Virus record (IMG/VR): IMGVR_UViG_3300027752_001458
Location: 45,676-109,675 of that record
Strand: one strand, 5' to 3'
Origin: a virus
Length of the DNA stretch: 64,000 nucleotides
Both the position numbers and the translations under genes were made by a program. Under the pieces are notes generated by a model. The model did no database searches and was not told the origin of the DNA. It worked only from the letters and a program-made list of their open reading frames with translations. Shown here piece after piece: positions 2,297-47,414 of this stretch (its first letter is position 1; every line of letters begins with the position of its first letter).

Positions 2297-3316
2297 ATGG
2301 CAAACCTTTTTGAAAGGGCCGCATGTTTTACAGATATACATTACGGCTTAAAACAAAACAGTAGACAGCATCTTAAAGACTGTCACAATTTTATAGATTG
2401 GTTTATAGCAGAAGCAAAGGCTCGAGATTGTGAGACTTGCTTCTTCTTAGGCGACTGGCATCATCACAGAGCAAGTATTAATATTGCTACGATGAATGCT
2501 ACTATTAAAGATCTTAAAAAGCTGAACGACAACTTTAGCAAAGTTTACTTTATAACTGGTAATCACGATTTGTACTATAGAGAGAAACGTGATCTTAACA
2601 GTGTAGAATTTGCTAGGGATTTAGAAAACTTTGTTATGGTAGACGAACACTTCTTGCAAGACGGTGTTGCTATTATTCCATGGCTAGTCGGTGACGAACA
2701 TAAACTGTTAAACAAAGTAGATTGCAAGTACATGTTTGGGCATTTTGAGTTACCATACTTTAAAATGAATGCAATGGTAGAGATGCCAGACCATGGTGGT
2801 ATCACAGCAAAAGACTTGTCTAATCCAGAATATGTATTCAGTGGTCACTTCCACAAGCGACAATACAAAGGCAATATCCATTATATGGGTAATGCGTTCC
2901 CGCACAACTATGCTGATGCACAAGATAACGAGCGTGGTGCTATGTTCCTCGAATGGGACCAAGAGCCACAATATGTTAATTGGGCAGAATGTCCTAAGTA
3001 TGTTACTATGGGACTTAGAGAATTACTAGAAGCACCTGAGAAATTCTTAGACGAGAATACACATGCTAGGATTAAATTAGACGTTGCTATTAGTTACGAA
3101 GAGGCAAACTTTATAAGAGAAACATTTGCTGAAAAGTTTAGTGTTAGAGAACTACAACTTATTGTCGTAAAAGAAGAAGACGAAGTTTTCGATGGAGAAG
3201 AAATTAATTTTGAGAGTGTTGACCAAATTGTAATTAGTCAATTGGAAACAATCGAAAGTCAATTGGTAGAAACACATCGACTAATTGAAATTTATAGGAA
3301 TATTGAAATTGCTTAA
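2297..3316 (+). CDS. gp47: Recombination endonuclease (Mre11/SbcD-like)
   Basis: Metallophosphoesterase motifs TDIH, GD, GNHD, GHF, SGHFH. Confidence 0.92.
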   Translation: MANLFERAACFTDIHYGLKQNSRQHLKDCHNFIDWFIAEAKARDCETCFFLGDWHHHRASINIATMNATIKDLKKLNDNFSKVYFITGNHDLYYREKRDLNSVEFARDLENFVMVDEHFLQDGVAIIPWLVGDEHKLLNKVDCKYMFGHFELPYFKMNAMVEMPDHGGITAKDLSNPEYVFSGHFHKRQYKGNIHYMGNAFPHNYADAQDNERGAMFLEWDQEPQYVNWAECPKYVTMGLRELLEAPEKFLDENTHARIKLDVAISYEEANFIRETFAEKFSVRELQLIVVKEEDEVFDGEEINFESVDQIVISQLETIESQLVETHRLIEIYRNIEIA

Positions 3317-5084
3317 AATTAAAAATGTAACAGCCAAGAACTTTATGAGTGTAGGTAACAACTTGCAAGCCGTAACGTTCGATACTGATTCATTGACATT
3401 AGTGTTAGGTCATAACTTAGACCTAGGTGGCGATGGTAGTAGGAACGGTACAGGTAAGACTACTATTATTAACGCACTCAGCTATGCACTTTACGGCGAG
3501 GCACTGACTAACATCAGAAAAGATAATCTTATTAATAAGACAAATGGTAAAGGAATGATTACCACTGTTGACTTTGAGATTAAAGGAACTGAGTATAGAA
3601 TTGAACGTGGTCGAAGACCTAACGTGTTAAAGTTCTATATCGATGGTAACGAATCGGCTGACAACGAACAGCAAGGTGATATGCGTGAAACTCAAAAAGA
3701 CATCGAGCGTGTCATTGGGTTCCCACATAATATGTTTAAGCATTTAATTGCATTAAACACATACACTGAACCGTTCCTCAGTATGAAAACAAATGACCAA
3801 CGAGACATGATTGAACAGTTGTTGGGCATTACTGAAATTAGTTCTAAGGCAGAAGTGCTAAAGGAATTACTCAAGTCTACTAAAGACAGTATTAAAGACG
3901 AAGAGTCTAGGATACATGCAGTACAGAATGCTAACAAACGTATCGAGTCCAGTATTAAAGACATCGAAAGTCGGAGTAAGGCTTGGGGCAGACTCAAAGG
4001 AGATAAAGTTCATGGATTGCAAACTAGTTTAGATACATTAGAACACACTGACATTAAAGCAGAGCTAGACTGTCACAGAAAGATTGTGGATATTAATGAA
4101 AAACAAGCAAAGCTAACGGCACTTAAAACAGACTTGACCACAAGAACAACGTCAATGAATCGAAGTGACAATAAACTTACTACCTTAGAAGCTAACTTAA
4201 CAAAAGCACTCGAAGGTGTATGTCCTACATGCGAGCAAGGTACTGCACATTTAAGCACACATGAAAAGTATACTGATGATTTGAGTGAAGAGATTAAAGA
4301 AGAGCAACGGTACAATGTTGAGCTAGTTGATAAAATTAGAGAGATTACTTCTACTATTAAAACACTTGGCAATATTCCTGAGACGCCTATTACGTTTTAT
4401 AACAAAATGGAAGATGCGTTACAGCACAAACATAATGTTGAAACGTTACAGGCACAAATTGAAGAAAAGATTAAAGAAGAAAATCCGTATGTCGAGCAAG
4501 TAGATCAACTTAGAACATCGGGTATCGAAGAAGTAAGTTATGAATCAATAAACGATTTCACTAGTTTAAAAGAACACCAAGAGTTCTTGCATAAACTATT
4601 AACCAGTAAAGACAGTTTTATTCGTAAAAAGATTATTGACCAAAACTTACAATACTTAAACTACCGACTGAACTACTATTTAGAAAAGTTGGGCTTACCA
4701 CACGATGTTAAATTTAACAGTGACTTAACTGTTGATATTACAGAGTACGGTAGAGACTTAGACTTTGATAATTTAAGTAGGGGCGAACGTAACAGACTTA
4801 TACTAGGTATGAGTTGGGCGTTTAGAGACATTTACGAAAGTCTTAACCAGCCTATGAACTTGATGTGTATCGACGAACTAGTAGATAGTGGCATGGACAC
4901 AACAGGTGTCGAGAATGCACTAGCAGTTCTTAAGAAGATGGGCCGAGAGTCAAACAAGAATGTATTCCTTATTTCGCACAAAGAAGAATTACAAGGGCGT
5001 GTTAACAATGTCTTGTATGTTGTTAAAGAAGGAGGATTCACTAGTTACAGTAATGACATAGAAATCCTTGATGAGAATACGTGA
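3285..5084 (+). CDS. gp46: Recombination ATPase (Rad50/SbcC-like)
   Basis: Walker A NGTGKTT, CPTC zinc hook, LSRGE signature, IDE Walker B, ISH; true start may be TTG at 3309. Confidence 0.92.
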   Translation: MKFIGILKLLKIKNVTAKNFMSVGNNLQAVTFDTDSLTLVLGHNLDLGGDGSRNGTGKTTIINALSYALYGEALTNIRKDNLINKTNGKGMITTVDFEIKGTEYRIERGRRPNVLKFYIDGNESADNEQQGDMRETQKDIERVIGFPHNMFKHLIALNTYTEPFLSMKTNDQRDMIEQLLGITEISSKAEVLKELLKSTKDSIKDEESRIHAVQNANKRIESSIKDIESRSKAWGRLKGDKVHGLQTSLDTLEHTDIKAELDCHRKIVDINEKQAKLTALKTDLTTRTTSMNRSDNKLTTLEANLTKALEGVCPTCEQGTAHLSTHEKYTDDLSEEIKEEQRYNVELVDKIREITSTIKTLGNIPETPITFYNKMEDALQHKHNVETLQAQIEEKIKEENPYVEQVDQLRTSGIEEVSYESINDFTSLKEHQEFLHKLLTSKDSFIRKKIIDQNLQYLNYRLNYYLEKLGLPHDVKFNSDLTVDITEYGRDLDFDNLSRGERNRLILGMSWAFRDIYESLNQPMNLMCIDELVDSGMDTTGVENALAVLKKMGRESNKNVFLISHKEELQGRVNNVLYVVKEGGFTSYSNDIEILDENT

Positions 5085-5506
5085 GCCAGTGGACATATAA
5101 AGGTAAACAAGTAGACGAGCTACCGACAGACTGCGAAGCATTTGTTTACCTAATCACAAACTTAACTAGCGATAAGAAGTACGTTGGTAAAAAGTTAGCA
5201 AAGTTCAAAACAACCAAGCCTCCCTTAAAGGGAAAGAAGAATAAACGCCGTGGCACTAAAGAAAGTGACTGGCGTACATATTGGGGCAGTTCGGATCACT
5301 TAAATGCTGATGTGTTAGAGCTAGGCGAAGATAAGTTTACAAGAGAAATATTGCATTATTGCCCAACTAGAGGCATAGCAAGTTACATCGAAGCAGAAGA
5401 ACAATTTAATCGAAATGTTCTCTTGACAGATGAGTATTATAATGGTATAATAAACGTCAGAGTAGGCGGTTCAAAAATACTAAAGGAACATTTTGGAAAG
5501 ACATAA
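5081..5506 (+). CDS. Small GIY-YIG family endonuclease (Seg-like catalytic domain only)
   Basis: AFVYLITN...KYVGKK, YWGSS, E, YYN motifs. Confidence 0.8.
   Translation: MSQWTYKGKQVDELPTDCEAFVYLITNLTSDKKYVGKKLAKFKTTKPPLKGKKNKRRGTKESDWRTYWGSSDHLNADVLELGEDKFTREILHYCPTRGIASYIEAEEQFNRNVLLTDEYYNGIINVRVGGSKILKEHFGKT
5423..5451 (+). promoter_or_regulatory. Consensus sigma70 promoter inside the GIY-YIG gene, facing the non-coding region
   Basis: TTGACA(5423-5428)-N17-TATAAT(5446-5451) with extended -10 TG. Confidence 0.6.
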
Positions 5507-6029
5507 CTATATATTGAACATGGCACACACCGACACCCAGTCTCGCTAATAAAAACGATCCCAGACACAAAGTCAAACTAATAAAGTACAACACATAGGA
5601 CTATGCACCAGCCCCAACCGAGGCCAATATCGGACTCTTCGACAAACCTGAACAAGGTGCGAGAATTAGAGATGCATAGCGGTAAAGATACGACACATAC
5701 GAAAAACTGTATTAGAAGGATGTAGGCACTGAGAAAAAGCAACCTACAAGTTTGTATAACTAAACTCTACAAGGTTATACAAATTTCCGTGAGATGAGAC
5801 GGTAGTGTATGGGGACAGAAAGCTCACTGGTTCCTTTAAGCACCCGAGTTAGAGATGATGATGGCTCATATGATGACAATATGACCGAACAGCTTCTCCT
5901 TGCAATAGGAGAAGTATGACTCCAACTATATGATAACTTTAAATTACTTCTTTAATTTAAAAAAGTTACTTCAAGAACTGAAATGAATGAAATGATTGAA
6001 GTTAGTAGAAGTAAAGATACGAAGTATCT
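5507..6029 (+). ncRNA. Putative large structured ncRNA and/or replication origin
   Basis: ORF-free ~520 nt with many stems: 5601-07/5673-79, 5721-26/5743-48, 5751-60/5774-83, 5787-90/5799-5802, 5866-71/5879-84, 5893-5900/5907-14, 5944-51/6007-14, 5968-74/5996-6002, 6015-20/6024-29. Confidence 0.55.
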
Positions 6030-6546
6030 ATAAAGTATTAAACAATTCAACAGTATCTCTGTAAGACAAACGTAAATTAACTGTATACAAATAAAAGTCT
6101 TTGTTTAATGAATGTAATGAAGCTCCATGGAATTTAGTTACGTCTAGTATACACACTTCACCTGGATGTAACATTTTATTGTGTTCTGAGTCTTTATGTA
6201 TTATTTCAATTGGAACATCTTCTAAGTTAAACATTATATTAGTTTTTCTTGTTAGAGGGTTCTTCCATCCCATTAACCAATCCTGATGTAGTTTCACCAT
6301 TGTACCTTGCTTAACAGTTTCTATTGCTACACTATGCTCCGCAATGTCTAACGGCAACGGAGTAGCGTCTATTATTTGTTGTTGTAGGCTTTGAGGCATG
6401 TCGCGGAGTAAAAAAATGTGCTGATCCATTTCAGCACGGTCTTCTACTAAATGAAACTCACTAGCCTCTTTGAACTGCGTTATAGGTTCAACAAGTTGTC
6501 GCATTGCGTCAACATCATAGTCCCACTTTAAAATTGTGCTATACAT
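6028..6546 (-). CDS. Putative 2OG-Fe(II) oxygenase/cupin-fold protein
   Basis: HQD...LDVTKFHG (HxD...H) pattern. Confidence 0.55.
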   Translation of the reverse strand: MYSTILKWDYDVDAMRQLVEPITQFKEASEFHLVEDRAEMDQHIFLLRDMPQSLQQQIIDATPLPLDIAEHSVAIETVKQGTMVKLHQDWLMGWKNPLTRKTNIMFNLEDVPIEIIHKDSEHNKMLHPGEVCILDVTKFHGASLHSLNKDFYLYTVNLRLSYRDTVELFNTL

Positions 6547-44171: not shown

Positions 44172-44261
44172 GGAGAGTTGGCTGAGTGGTCGAAAGTACC
44201 TCCCTGCTAAGGAGGCGTCTGGGTAACTGGACCGAGGGTTCGAATCCCTCACTCTCCGCCA
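44172..44261 (+). tRNA. tRNA-Ser(GCT)
   Basis: Cloverleaf, CCTCC-CT-GCT-AA-GGAGG, long variable arm, GTTCGAATC, encoded CCA. Confidence 0.95.
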
Positions 44262-44306
44262 CTATTTTAGAGCATTGGCAATGCTGGTGGTAAATATACG
44301 CAGTAA

Positions 44307-44381
44307 GCGAGTATAGTATAACGGTTATTACAAGACGTTGCCAACGTTTGGATATCGGTTCGATTCCGATTACCCGCTCCA
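44307..44381 (+). tRNA. tRNA-Gly(GCC)
   Basis: AGACG-TT-GCC-AA-CGTTT, GTTCGATTC, TCCA end; one A-C mismatch in the acceptor stem. Confidence 0.92.
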
Positions 44382-44431
44382 ACTACGAATAGTTCGTAGG
44401 CATTGTTACAAGTGTAACAGGAAGGTATAAC

Positions 44432-44674
44432 ATGGTTAATGCAATAACAACCAAAAAAGTAAGTAAGGCAACAACACCAGCAGTGTTAAAAAGAAAAGAA
44501 ATCGTAGATATTGATTTTGACTTTTCTAAGATTGGTGAGAATGTCCAGAAGAACGCAGAACAGATTAGCAAGAACCTTATGAGGAATGCTGAAATGATCG
44601 GTGAAAATGTTAAAAGAAACTCAGCGAGAGTTGGCGATAACATGAAGAAATACTTAAATAGAAATATTAAGTAA
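44432..44674 (+). CDS. 80-aa protein with four 11-residue Asn-rich repeats
   Basis: AGGAAGG RBS; IGENVQKNAEQ/ISKNLMRNAEM/IGENVKRNSAR/VGDNMKKYLNR. Confidence 0.75.
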   Translation: MVNAITTKKVSKATTPAVLKRKEIVDIDFDFSKIGENVQKNAEQISKNLMRNAEMIGENVKRNSARVGDNMKKYLNRNIK

Positions 44675-44688
44675 GCAAGAAAATATCT

Positions 44689-44764
44689 GGGGCTGTAGCT
44701 CAGTTGGGAGAGCGGTTCCCTTGCACGGAACAGGTCGTAGGTTCGATCCCTATCAGCTCCACCA
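44689..44764 (+). tRNA. tRNA-Ala(TGC)
   Basis: G3-U70 pair, GTTCC-CT-TGC-AC-GGAAC, GTTCGATCC, ACCA. Confidence 0.95.
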
Positions 44765-45563: not shown

Positions 45564-47414
45564 ATGTCAAAAATAAATCCGTTTAAAGACTTTGAAGTCA
45601 CTAACCACACACCAGTAGATTTTATTATACTTACAGACCCATACGGACTGTATAATGCACAGAACTGGGGCACACACATGCAGGCAGTGTTCAAGATGAC
45701 TGGGCAGGAGCTTGATCCTGATGTTGCTAGAGCACTACAGACTCGCAAAACAGACGACTCGTATAGTCCTAATGCTATATCTCATTCCCGTGGCCCGTCA
45801 AATTCTTACCATTTACGAACATTGGGTGCATATAAAGTTGCACATGAATGTAGGTTACGTGGATACACTGTACAAGTTGTAGATTACCAAAGTTTTTATG
45901 ATTTAGAAACGTTAAAACGAATTATGGACAAGTATGTAGGCAAAAACACATTGGCAATCGGCATATCGGTATCATTCTACATGCGATATCCTTGGATGTT
46001 GAATATGGTGACAAAAGAAATGCCTGTATTGCCACTTGAAGGCGTAAAAGATGAAGGCAAAATATTTGACGACTGGACTCTTAACTATTCCGGCTTCTTA
46101 ACACACGGTGAAGAGATTGATGATGCCTTTGTTAACTATGTAAAAGACATTAACCCTAATGTAAAGTTTATTAAAGGCGGAACTAGAGCAAGAGAAGATA
46201 TAGTTCACCGGAATGTCGACTACATAAATGTGGGCTGGGGCGATGTGACTATGCCGGAGATGCTTGATGAAATAAAAGCAGGCACGTCTGACGATATGCC
46301 AGTTCACACTAAGCACCCTTACAAGTTAGACCTGCTCAGTAAGTTAGCAATGGAGCACAGTACCATGAAATTTACAAAGTCAGATTTGTTATTCCCTGGC
46401 GAACTGATGCCACTTGAGTCCGGACGAGGTTGTATTTTTAAATGTACATTTTGTAGTCTTGAATTAGTTGGTAAAGAGAAAGGCACATACATTAAGTCAG
46501 AAGAAAGCATCAGACAAGAATTTATACACAATTACGAAGAACATGGCATAAAAGATTACTGGTTTGTCGAAGATACTTTCAACGATGACCATGACAAAAT
46601 GATACACTTGCATGAGATTATTACTAGTTTACCATTTAAAATTACGTTCTCATGTTATTTAAGATTAGATTTACTTTTCATTGGCAACAAACATAACCCT
46701 CCACAGCATCAGCTACTACTAGAGATGGGATTGAAGCGAGTGGAGTTCGGTATTGAGACGACTAACCATGACAGTGGAAAGGATATCGGCAAAGGATTGA
46801 ATCCACAAATACAATTACAATTTTTAAGAGACTTAAAAGCGGATCACGGTTGGAAAGATATTTTAATCGGGTCAGGTTTTATTATGGGTCTACCTAGCGA
46901 CACAAAGGAAAGTATCCAAGAAATGTTTAAGATAATGAGTCGAGATGATTTCCCAGTAGACAGACCTACAATTAGGTCATTGCACATTAGACCTGAAGAA
47001 ACAGGTAACAATGCTATTGAGGAACGTGGGCTTAGTGAATTTTCCAAGAATTGGGAAGAGCATGGGTACACTATGTCGTACGACAACCAGCATGGCATAT
47101 TTAAAACTTGGACAAATAGAAATGGTGTGTCTTTAGAGATGTGTGAAAAAATGCTATTGAATTATTTTAGACGCCACGACTTCAAACCGTTTAAGTCCGC
47201 CAAAGCTCAACAAATGAACATGGCAATATTAGCCACAATAGGCGTTGCAGAATTAGTGGCCCAAGGATTGCATTGGCCCACAGTTAGTGAAGACATCAAA
47301 TTCGATCTATTAGAATTCGAGCAAACAAATCCTAAACACACAAAACAGTTATCAGAAATACAAGCACTGAAGTTCTTAAAGTATACTGAATTACTACTGA
47401 CACAGGATCTATAG
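45564..47414 (+). CDS. B12-binding radical SAM protein 1
   Basis: LGAYKVAHECRLRGYTVQVVD; RGCIFKCTFC; EDTFND; FGIET; GFIMGLP. Confidence 0.88.
   Translation: MSKINPFKDFEVTNHTPVDFIILTDPYGLYNAQNWGTHMQAVFKMTGQELDPDVARALQTRKTDDSYSPNAISHSRGPSNSYHLRTLGAYKVAHECRLRGYTVQVVDYQSFYDLETLKRIMDKYVGKNTLAIGISVSFYMRYPWMLNMVTKEMPVLPLEGVKDEGKIFDDWTLNYSGFLTHGEEIDDAFVNYVKDINPNVKFIKGGTRAREDIVHRNVDYINVGWGDVTMPEMLDEIKAGTSDDMPVHTKHPYKLDLLSKLAMEHSTMKFTKSDLLFPGELMPLESGRGCIFKCTFCSLELVGKEKGTYIKSEESIRQEFIHNYEEHGIKDYWFVEDTFNDDHDKMIHLHEIITSLPFKITFSCYLRLDLLFIGNKHNPPQHQLLLEMGLKRVEFGIETTNHDSGKDIGKGLNPQIQLQFLRDLKADHGWKDILIGSGFIMGLPSDTKESIQEMFKIMSRDDFPVDRPTIRSLHIRPEETGNNAIEERGLSEFSKNWEEHGYTMSYDNQHGIFKTWTNRNGVSLEMCEKMLLNYFRRHDFKPFKSAKAQQMNMAILATIGVAELVAQGLHWPTVSEDIKFDLLEFEQTNPKHTKQLSEIQALKFLKYTELLLTQDL

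What the first reader, a model, noticed from the sequence alone, without database searches (positions are those of the whole stretch)
5081..6029. Minimal GIY-YIG nuclease followed by ~520 nt of structured non-coding sequence with its own consensus promoter
Seen: one of the longest ORF-free stretches in an otherwise dense window. It has a multibranch domain (CTATGCA 5601/TGCATAG 5673 enclosing two hairpins), a run of stems (5721-5748, a 10-bp stem at 5751-5783, 5787-5802, 5866-5884, 5893-5914) and a possible long-range CCCCA(5612)/TGGGG(5810) pairing. A TTGACA-N17-TATAAT promoter with extended -10 lies in the nuclease 3' end (5423-5451) and points into it. The 141-aa nuclease lacks the C-terminal DNA-binding domain usual in Seg/I-TevI homing enzymes. 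I see no group I intron, RNase P or tmRNA signatures. Inference: an undescribed phage ncRNA, possibly an RNP partner or guide for the nuclease (by analogy with IscB/omegaRNA), or a promoter-primed R-loop origin like T4 oriF/oriG.
Basis: partly seen in the sequence, partly recalled or inferred. Interest (0 to 1): 0.82.

Follow-up and report, generated by a model that had tools for sequence, protein, structure and literature searches.

The report
Twin-box knotted RNA beside phage nuclease
The gene-free 520 bases after a small DNA-cutting-enzyme gene of this uncultured giant marine T4-like phage encode a real, doubly knotted non-coding RNA. It belongs to an uncatalogued family that carries the same 7-letter word twice and also occurs, without the enzyme, in bacterial genomic islands, so it is probably a gene in its own right and not the enzyme's guide.

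Summary
Window 5507-6029 (+) is a conserved structured RNA, not a gap or a decayed gene. In 50 non-redundant relatives, 95.7% of cells pair and 46 of 78 pairs show compensatory changes. Two pseudoknots are supported, G.U outnumbers A.C 422:34 (so the + strand folds), and there is no codon periodicity. No Rfam family matches, tmRNA, group I intron and RNase P included.

A 7-nt word (ATATGAT, 5868-5874 and 5928-5934) is identical in both copies in 48/48 relatives scored, although seven different words occur. It has no complementary partner in the RNA or within 3 kb.

In phage contigs this RNA subtype always follows the 141-aa SegE-type GIY-YIG gene (108/108; 58/58 when loci are found through SbcC). 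The reverse does not hold. Melnitz phage (79% identical protein, complete genome) and two protein clades lack the RNA. Homologous twin-box RNAs also sit in Polynucleobacter-like genomic islands beside DUF6641 and an integrase, with no GIY-YIG gene within 1.5 kb.

The perfect sigma-70 promoter is real but confined to a sub-lineage.

This scan has already found the same family on at least ten other genomes.

The parts
3285..5084 (+). SbcC/gp46-like ATPase gene (context). It is preceded by an SbcD/gp47-like gene at 2297-3316, and its stop overlaps the nuclease start.
   Evidence: PHROG 77 E 4e-98; AAA_23/SMC_N; Metallophos for 2297-3316
5081..5506 (+). 141-aa stand-alone SegE-type GIY-YIG nuclease gene
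   Evidence: PF19835 E 1e-33. Y23, Y34, G36, Y67, S70, E104 and N121 are invariant in 57 relatives. AF2 pLDDT 96. Best structural match is the I-TevI catalytic domain, Z 8.4; T4 EndoII scores Z 5.5.
5423..5451 (+). Sigma-70-type promoter (TTGACA-N17-TATAAT, extended -10) inside the nuclease 3' end, pointing into the RNA. Predicted start near 5458.
   Evidence: 12/12 consensus match. Present in the window and 8 of 25 cluster A loci, and absent from clusters B-D.
5507..5597 (+). C/A-rich leader with two copies of the GACACNNAGTC motif (5530-5542 and 5562-5574). Copy number varies among relatives.
   Evidence: alignment A1
5598..5854 (+). Knotted core with these helices: 5598-9/5844-5; 5601-7/5673-9; 5618-21/5630-3; 5638-44/5658-63; 5647-9/5655-7; 5687-91/5709-13; 5721-6/5743-8; 5749-61/5773-85; 5805-8/5840-3; 5811-6/5830-5.
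   Evidence: the count of structure pairs on 50 sequences: 95.7% paired, 46/78 pairs compensatory, 0/500 shuffles as high, slid controls 33-42%
5765..5854 (+). Pseudoknot 1: loop 5765-5769 pairs with 5850-5854.
   Evidence: 5/5 pairs with changes on both sides, and the top covariation score in an all-against-all scan
5789..5827 (+). Pseudoknot 2: 5789-5793 (GUGAG) pairs with 5823-5827 (CUCAC).
   Evidence: 4/5 pairs compensatory, 100% paired
5855..5937 (+). Twin-box domain: box 1 at 5868-5874 and box 2 at 5928-5934 (both ATATGAT), flanking hairpin 5893-5900/5907-5914.
   Evidence: Boxes identical in 48/48 scored relatives, with 7 different words. MI is 1.0 and 1.36 bits between matching positions, and there is no complementary partner. 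The hairpin covaries.
5938..6029 (+). A/T-rich tail with helix 5966-5972/6008-6014 and terminal hairpin 6015-6020/6024-6029 (C-GAA-G loop). It overlaps the stop codon of the convergent gene 6028-6546(-).
   Evidence: Compensatory changes in both helices in 20 sequences. A tail hairpin with a C-GNA-G-type loop is seen in clusters A, B and D and the bacterial loci; cluster C has a TTAG-loop hairpin at that place.

Best explanation
Shown:
- 5507-6029 (+) is a gene for a roughly 500-nt structured RNA of an uncatalogued, mosaic superfamily, which earlier reports of this scan called 'twin-box' RNA.
- A subtype-specific, doubly pseudoknotted core (5598-5854) is followed by a domain shared across the superfamily. 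That domain presents the same short word twice, around a hairpin, and ends in a hairpin tail.
- Members are carried by mobile elements. In aquatic T4-like phages the RNA lies directly 3' of a stand-alone GIY-YIG gene in the SbcD-SbcC neighbourhood. In Polynucleobacter-like genomic islands it lies beside DUF6641 and a tyrosine integrase.

Inferred:
- In this phage the RNA is made on the + strand from its own strong sigma-70 promoter inside the nuclease gene. In most relatives it is probably made by read-through from the SbcD-SbcC-nuclease operon.
- It acts as an autonomous RNA, not as the nuclease's guide. The nuclease is a neighbour, a conserved EndoII/Seg-like enzyme that shares the locus.
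- The two words must stay identical yet have no complement in the RNA. The most economical mechanism is that both copies pair with one element-specific complementary sequence on another nucleic-acid strand. My pick, at about 1 in 4, is the element's own template DNA. RNA box 1 could then pair with the DNA under box 2 and hold an R-loop or primer.
For: Covariation and strand:
- 46/78 pairs are compensatory, 95.7% of cells pair, 0/500 shuffles reach this, and slid controls give 33-42%.
- 38/77 pairs are compensatory in an independent RNAalifold run, tail included.
- G.U 422 against A.C 34.
- Non-coding: variability by codon position is 0.181/0.172/0.182, and indel lengths are not multiples of 3.

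No known family: no Rfam match at E<=10 and no tRNA or tmRNA.

Twin boxes: identical in 48/48 with 7 different words. Identical boxes also occur in clusters B and D and in the bacterial loci.

Superfamily: profile hits chain A-D-B-C. The bacterial RF01718 loci L403-L405 hit the cluster C profile at E 8e-8 to 4e-7, have no GIY-YIG within the locus, and have a divergent DUF6641 gene. An integrase and defence genes lie nearby.

Nuclease without RNA:
- The complete Melnitz genome has a 79% identical protein and no RNA.
- The E and F clades lack the RNA.
- Synechococcus phage S-SRM01 has only an 88-nt gap after its homologue.

Contigs from RNA libraries of four studies lie on 5465-5966. This is weak evidence: they are contigs only, and DNA carry-over is not excluded.
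Against: - In phage contigs this subtype is never apart from the nuclease gene: 108/108 in loci found through the RNA and 58/58 in loci found through SbcC. The pair is even inverted as a unit. This could mean functional coupling.
- The link from cluster A to the bacterial RNAs is a chain of partial profile hits plus shared twin-box/tail architecture. It is not a direct match.
- No transcript ends, strand or level could be measured.
- The pairing partner of the words is unknown. No complement was found within 3 kb.
- The promoter is not conserved.
Confidence: 0.55

Rival explanations
1. Cis-acting replication element. The transcript is a structured pre-primer, like ColE1 RNA II or the T4 oriF/oriG R-loop. 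It stays hybridised to its template and primes DNA synthesis. The twin words let upstream RNA pair with downstream template DNA, and the GNA-triloop tail hairpins act on displaced single-stranded DNA.
For: - A strong promoter points into the element.
- There is one copy per element.
- The family occurs in unrelated mobile elements, both phages and islands.
- Identity covariation, rather than complementarity, is what RNA:DNA pairing in cis predicts.
- C-GNA-G mini-hairpins and TAGCGA-like words occur in the tails.
- An earlier report of this scan (e1-5835862) reached this reading from island architecture. I did not test its slot argument.
Against: - The promoter is absent in most relatives.
- GC skew only follows gene strand.
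- Known T4 R-loop origins need no conserved fold.
- Invariant G.U pairs, two pseudoknots and many invariant unpaired bases look like a folded functional RNA, not just a hybrid-former.
- There is no origin mapping.
Confidence: 0.2
2. RNA partner of the adjacent GIY-YIG nuclease (guide, scaffold or inhibitor), by analogy with HEARO/omegaRNA-IscB. The RNA supplies the target recognition that the 141-aa protein lacks.
For: - The RNA-to-nuclease linkage is absolute in phage contigs, keeps the same orientation, survives rearranged flanks and is inverted as a unit.
- It persists down to 58% protein identity (L389).
- The protein has no DNA-binding domain and carries a conserved Lys-rich hairpin.
Against: - The protein occurs, with its catalytic residues intact, without the RNA: the complete Melnitz genome, clades E and F, and a cyanophage.
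- Homologous RNAs occur with no GIY-YIG found in the 1.1-3.1 kb loci.
- One conserved protein would have to read very different RNA cores.
- Stand-alone GIY-YIG enzymes exist (T4 EndoII, Z 5.5).
- The element is single-copy with no mobile-element ends.
- No guide-like match was found.
Confidence: 0.08
3. Cis-regulatory or stabilising 3' untranslated region of the SbcD-SbcC-nuclease mRNA. It would limit or time expression of a potentially toxic nuclease.
For: - The one-way dependence, where the RNA is never without the gene but the gene can be without the RNA, fits an accessory cis element.
- Most relatives have no separate promoter.
Against: - In about ten loci 0.85-1.76 kb separates gene and RNA, and in the two loci examined (L057, L067) the insert is a reverse-oriented gene.
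- The window has its own promoter downstream of most of the coding sequence.
- Bacterial relatives lie beside different genes.
- A 500-nt doubly knotted 3' UTR would be unprecedented in phages.
Confidence: 0.07
4. Not an RNA at all: a decayed remnant of a nuclease C-terminal domain, or a purely DNA-level structure.
For: Homing-type GIY-YIG genes usually have a C-terminal domain. GNA triloops are classic DNA mini-hairpins.
Against: - There is no periodicity and indels are out of frame.
- About 140 aa is the family norm.
- Invariant G.U wobble pairs and strand asymmetry are present.
- Pseudoknots are supported.
- RNA-library contigs cover the element.
Confidence: 0.03

Closest known systems
Polynucleobacter-1 RNA motif (Rfam RF01718; Weinberg et al. 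2010, PMC2864571)
   Same: Bacterial loci that carry RF01718 (L403-L405) continue 3' into a twin-box domain and tail. This part matches my cluster C profile (E 8e-8 to 4e-7) and has the same box-hairpin-box-tail layout as the window RNA.
   Different: RF01718 is a 141-position orphan motif that covers only the 5' part of those bacterial RNAs. It hits neither this window nor clusters B, C and D. The window's 5' core is a different, doubly knotted module.
GOLLD and ROOL large ornate RNAs of phages and prophages (RF01998, RF03087; PMC12286853)
   Same: Large, intricately folded, phage-borne non-coding RNAs of unknown function that were found by comparative genomics.
   Different: There is no sequence or structure match. 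This RNA is smaller, lies next to a nuclease gene rather than tRNAs, and has twin identical words.
HEARO / omegaRNA with IscB (HNH endonuclease-associated RNA)
   Same: A structured RNA genetically linked to a small nuclease gene.
   Different: Here the linkage is one-way, the element is single-copy, no guide segment or transposon ends were found, the RNA lies 3' of the gene, and relatives lack the nuclease altogether.
ColE1 RNA II and T4 oriF/oriG R-loop origins
   Same: A promoter-driven, roughly 500-nt transcript that could act in cis on its own template. The tail hairpins resemble single-strand initiation signals.
   Different: No hybrid, RNase H site or origin activity has been shown. The promoter is not conserved. 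The pseudoknotted core has no counterpart in those systems.
T4 SegB within the tRNA/stable-RNA cluster, and T4 endonuclease II (DenA)
   Same: SegB is a free-standing GIY-YIG gene lodged beside conserved RNA genes. DenA is a 136-aa stand-alone GIY-YIG that works with gp46/47 in DNA breakdown. The window gene sits right after the gp47/gp46 homologues, and in Melnitz it sits after nrdB (my recollection, not checked here, is that T4 denA also lies by nrdB).
   Different: The window protein has no Seg-type DNA-binding domain. It is not sporadic (58/58 loci), is under strong conservation, and shows only fold-level similarity to EndoII (Z 5.5).

Membership tests
Any Rfam 15 family (incl. group I intron, RNase P, tmRNA, GOLLD, ROOL, HEARO, RF01718, RF01712) | Covariance-model score at or above the family's gathering threshold | tested here: not met
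   Only chance-level hits at E 1.3-9.4, all far below gathering scores. Clusters B, C and D likewise.
Twin-box RNA (this scan's working name) | The same short word twice, identical within an RNA and variable between RNAs | tested here: met
   ATATGAT at 5868-5874 and 5928-5934. Identical in 48/48 relatives, with 7 different words.
Twin-box RNA (this scan's working name) | Multiply pseudoknotted fold supported by covariation | tested here: met
   Two pseudoknots, 9 of 10 pairs compensatory
Twin-box RNA (this scan's working name) | Hairpin tail with a C-GNA-G loop after the second box | tested here: met
   6015-6029 with covariation. Seen also in clusters B and D and the bacterial loci.
Polynucleobacter-1 motif RF01718 | Homology of the window RNA to RNAs that contain the motif | tested here: inconclusive
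   Homology holds only through a chain of partial profile hits (A-D-B-C-bacterial) and shared architecture. There is no direct hit.
Guide RNA of an RNA-guided nuclease (omegaRNA/HEARO type) | Protein and RNA co-occur obligately in both directions | tested here: not met
   RNA to protein is 108/108. Protein without RNA: Melnitz and clades E and F. RNA without protein: bacterial islands.
Guide RNA of an RNA-guided nuclease (omegaRNA/HEARO type) | A variable guide segment matching a target | tested here: inconclusive
   The variable words and a hypervariable stretch (about 5878-5892) exist, but no complementary site lies within 3 kb. Wider targets were not searchable in a meaningful way.
tmRNA | tRNA-like domain and a tag reading frame | tested here: not met
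   ARAGORN finds none and no Rfam tmRNA model hits. The candidate frames are not conserved (by eye on A2).
Group I intron with an endonuclease ORF | Flanking exons of an interrupted gene, and a group I core | tested here: not met
   SbcC is full length in all three arrangements. The downstream gene is convergent. There is no RF00028 hit.
GIY-YIG nuclease superfamily (the protein) | GIY and YIG tyrosines, catalytic Glu and Asn, and the GIY-YIG fold | tested here: met
   Y23, Y34-G36, E104 and N121 are invariant. I-TevI catalytic domain Z 8.4, PD-T4-3 Z 7.2, EndoII Z 5.5, UvrC Z 5.3.
Seg-type free-standing homing endonuclease | A C-terminal DNA-binding domain and a sporadic presence among close relatives | tested here: not met
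   The protein is only 141 aa, which is the family norm of 130-170 aa. The gene is present in 58/58 SbcC-anchored loci.
R-loop / RNA II-type origin | A persistent RNA-DNA hybrid and initiation of DNA synthesis at the site | not testable with these tools
   Only indirect evidence: a promoter in a sub-lineage, and no GC-skew signal.

The most novel reading that the evidence does not exclude
The twin-box RNA is a programmable specificity RNA for the small DNA-cutting or DNA-joining enzyme encoded beside it: GIY-YIG nuclease in phages, tyrosine integrase in islands. Its two identical 7-nt words would pair with the same core sequence in two DNA partners, loosely like the two loops of an IS110 bridge RNA. 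That would make it a new class of RNA-directed DNA transaction.
Probability: 0.06. Interest if true: 0.95.

Novelty: new variant of a known kind. Interest (0 to 1): 0.72.

Why it matters
Large, intricately folded RNAs are rare, and each class has so far turned out to do something unusual: ribozymes, RNA cages, guide RNAs. This family is abundant in uncultured marine T4-like phages. It reaches into bacterial genomic islands and has two covariation-proven pseudoknots.

It also has a feature I know from no other RNA: two copies of a word that change together by identity, not by complementarity. That points to pairing with an outside strand. The experiment is simple to design: change one word, then both.

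The result also corrects an attractive but probably wrong reading, an RNA-guided GIY-YIG nuclease. In addition, it extends a 2010 orphan Rfam motif (Polynucleobacter-1) into a full-length RNA family.

Tried and rejected
Contexts came from the search for related loci and the DNA search instead.
- Decayed C-terminal domain or hidden ORF: rejected.
- tmRNA: rejected. Melnitz has a permuted tmRNA elsewhere that is unrelated to this RNA.
- Group I intron: rejected on context.
- Metatranscriptome depth: run X1 shows word depth of about 450 over 5412-5813 against 30-65 in the flanks. The high-depth contigs carry variants of a related strain whose flanks may not lay at 90% identity, and the tool warns against ranking by contig depth. 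I therefore do not use it as evidence of abundance. No ends or strand could be read.
- Complement of the 7-nt word: not found at any consistent place within 3 kb in 122 loci. The only exception is where the word is itself part of a palindrome.
- A mini-ORF (ATG 5916 ... TGA 5931 TAA), with AGGAG at 5907-5911: by eye, a 1-nt insertion in about a third of relatives breaks the frame, so I rejected it as a conserved feature (alignment A2).
- Word positions 3-5 read ATG/GTG/TTG. I noted this but could not separate it from chance.
- K-turn or C/D-box reading of the GAUGA words: only chance-level Rfam hits.
- GC skew as an origin signal: none.
- Isolated phages in INPHARED: no record carries the A, B or C RNA types.
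- A 16-mer scan of GTDB genomes gave mostly chance matches; 1 of 120 was real (L389).
- L115 was a chance 18-mer match inside a coding gene.
- Complex prediction was not used, because it cannot take RNA.
Full report
**What is there**

The window is part of a 109,675-bp IMG/VR virus record, estimated 28% complete. That makes it a giant T4-like phage.

On the + strand lie an SbcD/gp47-like gene (2297-3316, Metallophos) and an SbcC/gp46-like gene (3285-5084, PHROG 77, E 4e-98). A 141-aa gene follows at 5081-5506 and overlaps the SbcC stop. It matches PF19835 SegE_GIY-YIG across the whole profile (E 1e-33).

From 5507 to the stop codon of a convergent gene at 6028 there is no ORF of 60 aa or more. 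A 12/12 sigma-70 promoter with an extended -10 lies at 5423-5451.

**The protein**

This is not a truncated Seg enzyme.
- A word-indexed search found 8000 relatives of 77-247 aa. The top 120 are 139-148 aa long and 80-100% identical.
- An exhaustive search found 2063 representative clusters, mostly 130-170 aa.
- Y23, Y34, G36, Y67, S70, E104 and N121 are invariant in 57 diverse relatives.
- The AlphaFold model has pLDDT 96.
- Its best structural matches are all GIY-YIG enzymes: I-TevI catalytic domain Z 8.4, PD-T4-3 Z 7.2, T4 endonuclease II Z 5.5 and UvrC Z 5.3.

It is therefore a probably active, stand-alone GIY-YIG nuclease. Phage T4 EndoII is a precedent for such an enzyme working without an extra domain or an RNA (established knowledge).

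**The gap is a conserved structured RNA**

I collected loci through the nuclease gene. In 25 of them the sequence after the stop codon is 71-88% identical to the window over 300-480 nt, and it never holds a conserved ORF.

RNAalifold on 20 sequences gave 77 pairs, 38 of them with compensatory changes, including the tail helices.

I then built a non-redundant set of 50 sequences and wrote a structure with 14 helices, two of them pseudoknots. On this set:
- 95.7% of 3826 cells form standard pairs.
- 46 of 78 pairs have changes on both sides.
- None of 500 shuffles reaches any of the five measures.
- Sliding the partners by 1-3 columns drops pairing to 33-42% and the covariation score from 0.326 to 0.04-0.08.

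Pseudoknot 1 (5765-5769 with 5850-5854) contained the top-scoring pair in an unbiased all-against-all scan. Pseudoknot 2 (5789-5793 with 5823-5827) has 4 of 5 pairs compensatory.

G.U cells outnumber A.C cells 422 to 34, so the + strand is the folded one. Variability has no codon periodicity and indels are not multiples of three. The single-sequence fold is only marginally better than shuffles (z -1.8), so the case rests on comparison.

Confirmed: the closing stem 5601/5673 with its two enclosed hairpins, and the stems 5721-5748, 5751-5783 and 5893-5914.

Not confirmed:
- The CCCCA/TGGGG long-range pair. TGGGGA pairs locally with 5830-5835, with GAGG<->TCTT covariation.
- The 5866-5884 stem is specific to this window.
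- The 5787-5802 stem is invariant and competes with pseudoknot 2.

**No known family**

Rfam 15 gives only chance-level hits at E<=10, on the 2.5-kb region and on the 561-nt element alone. ARAGORN finds no tRNA or tmRNA here.

A group I intron is excluded by context. SbcC is full length in all arrangements, and the next gene is convergent.

A 2023 survey of phage structured RNAs reports only motifs of 29-151 nt (PMC10690425). I found no paper that describes this RNA.

**Twin boxes**

Two 7-nt words, at 5868-5874 and 5928-5934 (both ATATGAT), flank the hairpin 5893-5914.
- In 48 of 48 relatives that a regular expression could score, the two words are identical.
- Seven different words occur: ACATGAT, TCATGAT, TCGTGAT, ACTTGAT, TCTTGAT, ATATGAT and TCGAGAT.
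- The variable positions share 1.0 and 1.36 bits of mutual information with the same position of the other box. They have no complementary partner elsewhere in the RNA.
- In 122 loci, neither the word nor its complement recurs at a fixed place within 3 kb.

This is covariation by identity. It implies that both copies meet one common partner.

**Linkage to the nuclease gene**

Searching viral contigs for an 18-mer of the RNA core, which is independent of the nuclease, gave 118 loci. Of the 109 with at least 750 nt of upstream room, 108 have the GIY-YIG gene upstream on the same strand. The usual distance from gene end to motif is 262-320 nt. The one exception, L115, is a chance match inside a coding gene.

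Loci found through SbcC instead carry both gene and RNA in 58 of 58 cases with room. There are three arrangements, one of them with the gene-RNA pair inverted as a unit. There are no empty sites.

**The reverse does not hold**

Among 76 nuclease loci with enough downstream sequence, the downstream sequences fall into several clusters:
- Cluster A (25 loci) is the window's type.
- Clusters B (17, plus L025 and L026), C (9) and D (5) are also long, non-coding and hairpin-rich. Partial profile hits link them to each other and to A, in the chain A-D, D-B, B-C.
- Clusters E and F and eight other loci have no such RNA within 3 kb.

On the protein tree, E is a well-supported clade (100/97) and F nests beside C.

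E-type loci follow a roughly 400-aa gene. In Methylophilales phage Melnitz, whose downstream sequence is E-type, the nuclease gene follows ribonucleotide reductase genes. Its protein is 79% identical to the window's, and its complete 141.5-kb genome has no hit to any of the four RNA profiles. Synechococcus phage S-SRM01 has an 88-nt gap after its homologue.

The protein therefore does not need the RNA.

**RNA without the nuclease**

Earlier reports of this scan on other genomes had seen the same family at least ten times. They claimed that relatives occur in bacterial islands and overlap the Rfam orphan motif Polynucleobacter-1. I tested this as follows.

RF01718 does not hit the window or clusters B-D. 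In a sample of 151 Burkholderiales genomes it hits four, three of them above the gathering score.

Three of these loci, L403-L405, continue 3' into sequence that matches my cluster C profile (E 8e-8 to 4e-7). By eye, all four show:
- twin boxes, for example CTC-AGCGAAAG and TCT-AGCGAAAA, changing to GGCGAAAG in both boxes in other genomes;
- a GAGCG...GCGAAA-type tail;
- a CGAAG-loop hairpin.

They have no GIY-YIG homologue.

In three of the four loci a DUF6641 gene lies divergently upstream. In one genome a tyrosine integrase lies 0.8 kb downstream, and SNF2-Mrr and EH_Signature defence genes lie beyond. So the superfamily is carried by unrelated mobile elements without this nuclease.

The link from cluster A to these bacterial RNAs is indirect: a chain of partial hits plus shared layout. 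I flag it as such.

**Expression**

Contigs from RNA libraries of four different studies lie on parts of 5465-5966. They are contigs only, so they give no strand, ends or level, and DNA carry-over cannot be excluded. I do not use the tenfold depth excess in one run, for the reasons given under Tried and rejected.

The perfect promoter occurs in the window and eight cluster A loci, and once in an RNA-less locus. It does not occur in most of A or in B-D. Most relatives must therefore be transcribed by read-through or from a promoter I cannot recognise.

**How it most likely works**

Shown: this is a folded + strand RNA of a mobile-element-borne superfamily. It has a subtype-specific knotted core and a shared twin-box/tail module.

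Inferred: it is an autonomous RNA. The nuclease is a conserved neighbour. Its place after the gp47/gp46 homologues fits an EndoII- or Seg-like DNA-processing role, by analogy with T4 host-DNA breakdown by EndoII plus gp46/47.

The identity constraint on the words is most simply met if both pair with one outside strand. If that strand is the element's own template DNA, RNA from box 1 could pair under box 2 and stabilise an R-loop. Together with the GNA-triloop tail, that would make the element an RNA-II-like origin. I rate this specific step at about 0.2-0.25 and the nuclease-guide model at about 0.08.

**Novelty**

The full-length family is not in Rfam. Only the 5' third of a bacterial subtype is catalogued, as an orphan motif. 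It belongs with the large ornate phage and mobile-element RNAs of unknown function. The twin words that covary by identity are, to my knowledge, new.

Noticed in passing
window 2297-5506: SbcD/gp47-like, SbcC/gp46-like and the GIY-YIG gene form one tightly packed + strand unit with overlapping stops and starts. This suggests the nuclease works with the gp46/47-type exonuclease, as T4 EndoII does in host-DNA breakdown.
   Followed up: partly
window 5916-5936: A mini-ORF (M-T-P-T-I, then TGA TAA inside box 2) lies 4 nt after an AGGAG that is buried in the 3' arm of hairpin 5893-5914. A 1-nt insertion breaks the frame in about a third of relatives.
   Followed up: partly
window 5868-5874 and 5928-5934: In all seven word variants but one, positions 3-5 of the word read ATG, GTG or TTG, the three bacterial start codons. 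They never read CTG.
   Followed up: no
window 5530-5542 and 5562-5574: Two copies of a GACACNNAGTC motif lie 32 nt apart in the C/A-rich leader. Relatives have one to three copies, or AAGGCACA repeats instead (L045 has three tandem 46-nt units).
   Followed up: partly
L067:3424-3942(-) and L057:1405-1929(-): In about seven loci (two of them examined here) a cupin-like 173-aa gene lies in reverse orientation between nuclease and RNA. It resembles the window's convergent gene 6028-6546. About 30 nt of the old nuclease 3' end stay attached to the RNA.
   Followed up: partly
L276 (Melnitz MZ577097.1) 45984-46436: Melnitz phage carries an annotated, apparently two-piece (permuted) tmRNA. It is unrelated to the twin-box RNA.
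   Followed up: partly
L407 (G053:C4:64000-82000): A Polynucleobacter-like genomic island. In order it holds a tyrosine integrase, a 224-aa unknown gene, the twin-box RNA, a divergent DUF6641 gene, and then SNF2-Mrr and EH_Signature defence genes.
   Followed up: partly
all RNA loci, at the nuclease stop codon (window 5504-5515): The motif ATAACT(N)T, which contains the nuclease's TAA stop, is also present just 5' of the bacterial RNAs, which have no nuclease gene. It may be the true 5' edge or a promoter element of the RNA.
   Followed up: no
window 44172-44764: Three phage tRNA genes (Ser-GCT, Gly-GCC, Ala-TGC).
   Followed up: no
L048:2799-2959: A weak hit (E 1.5e-4) of the cluster D RNA profile lies upstream, not downstream, of the nuclease gene in an otherwise RNA-less locus.
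   Followed up: no
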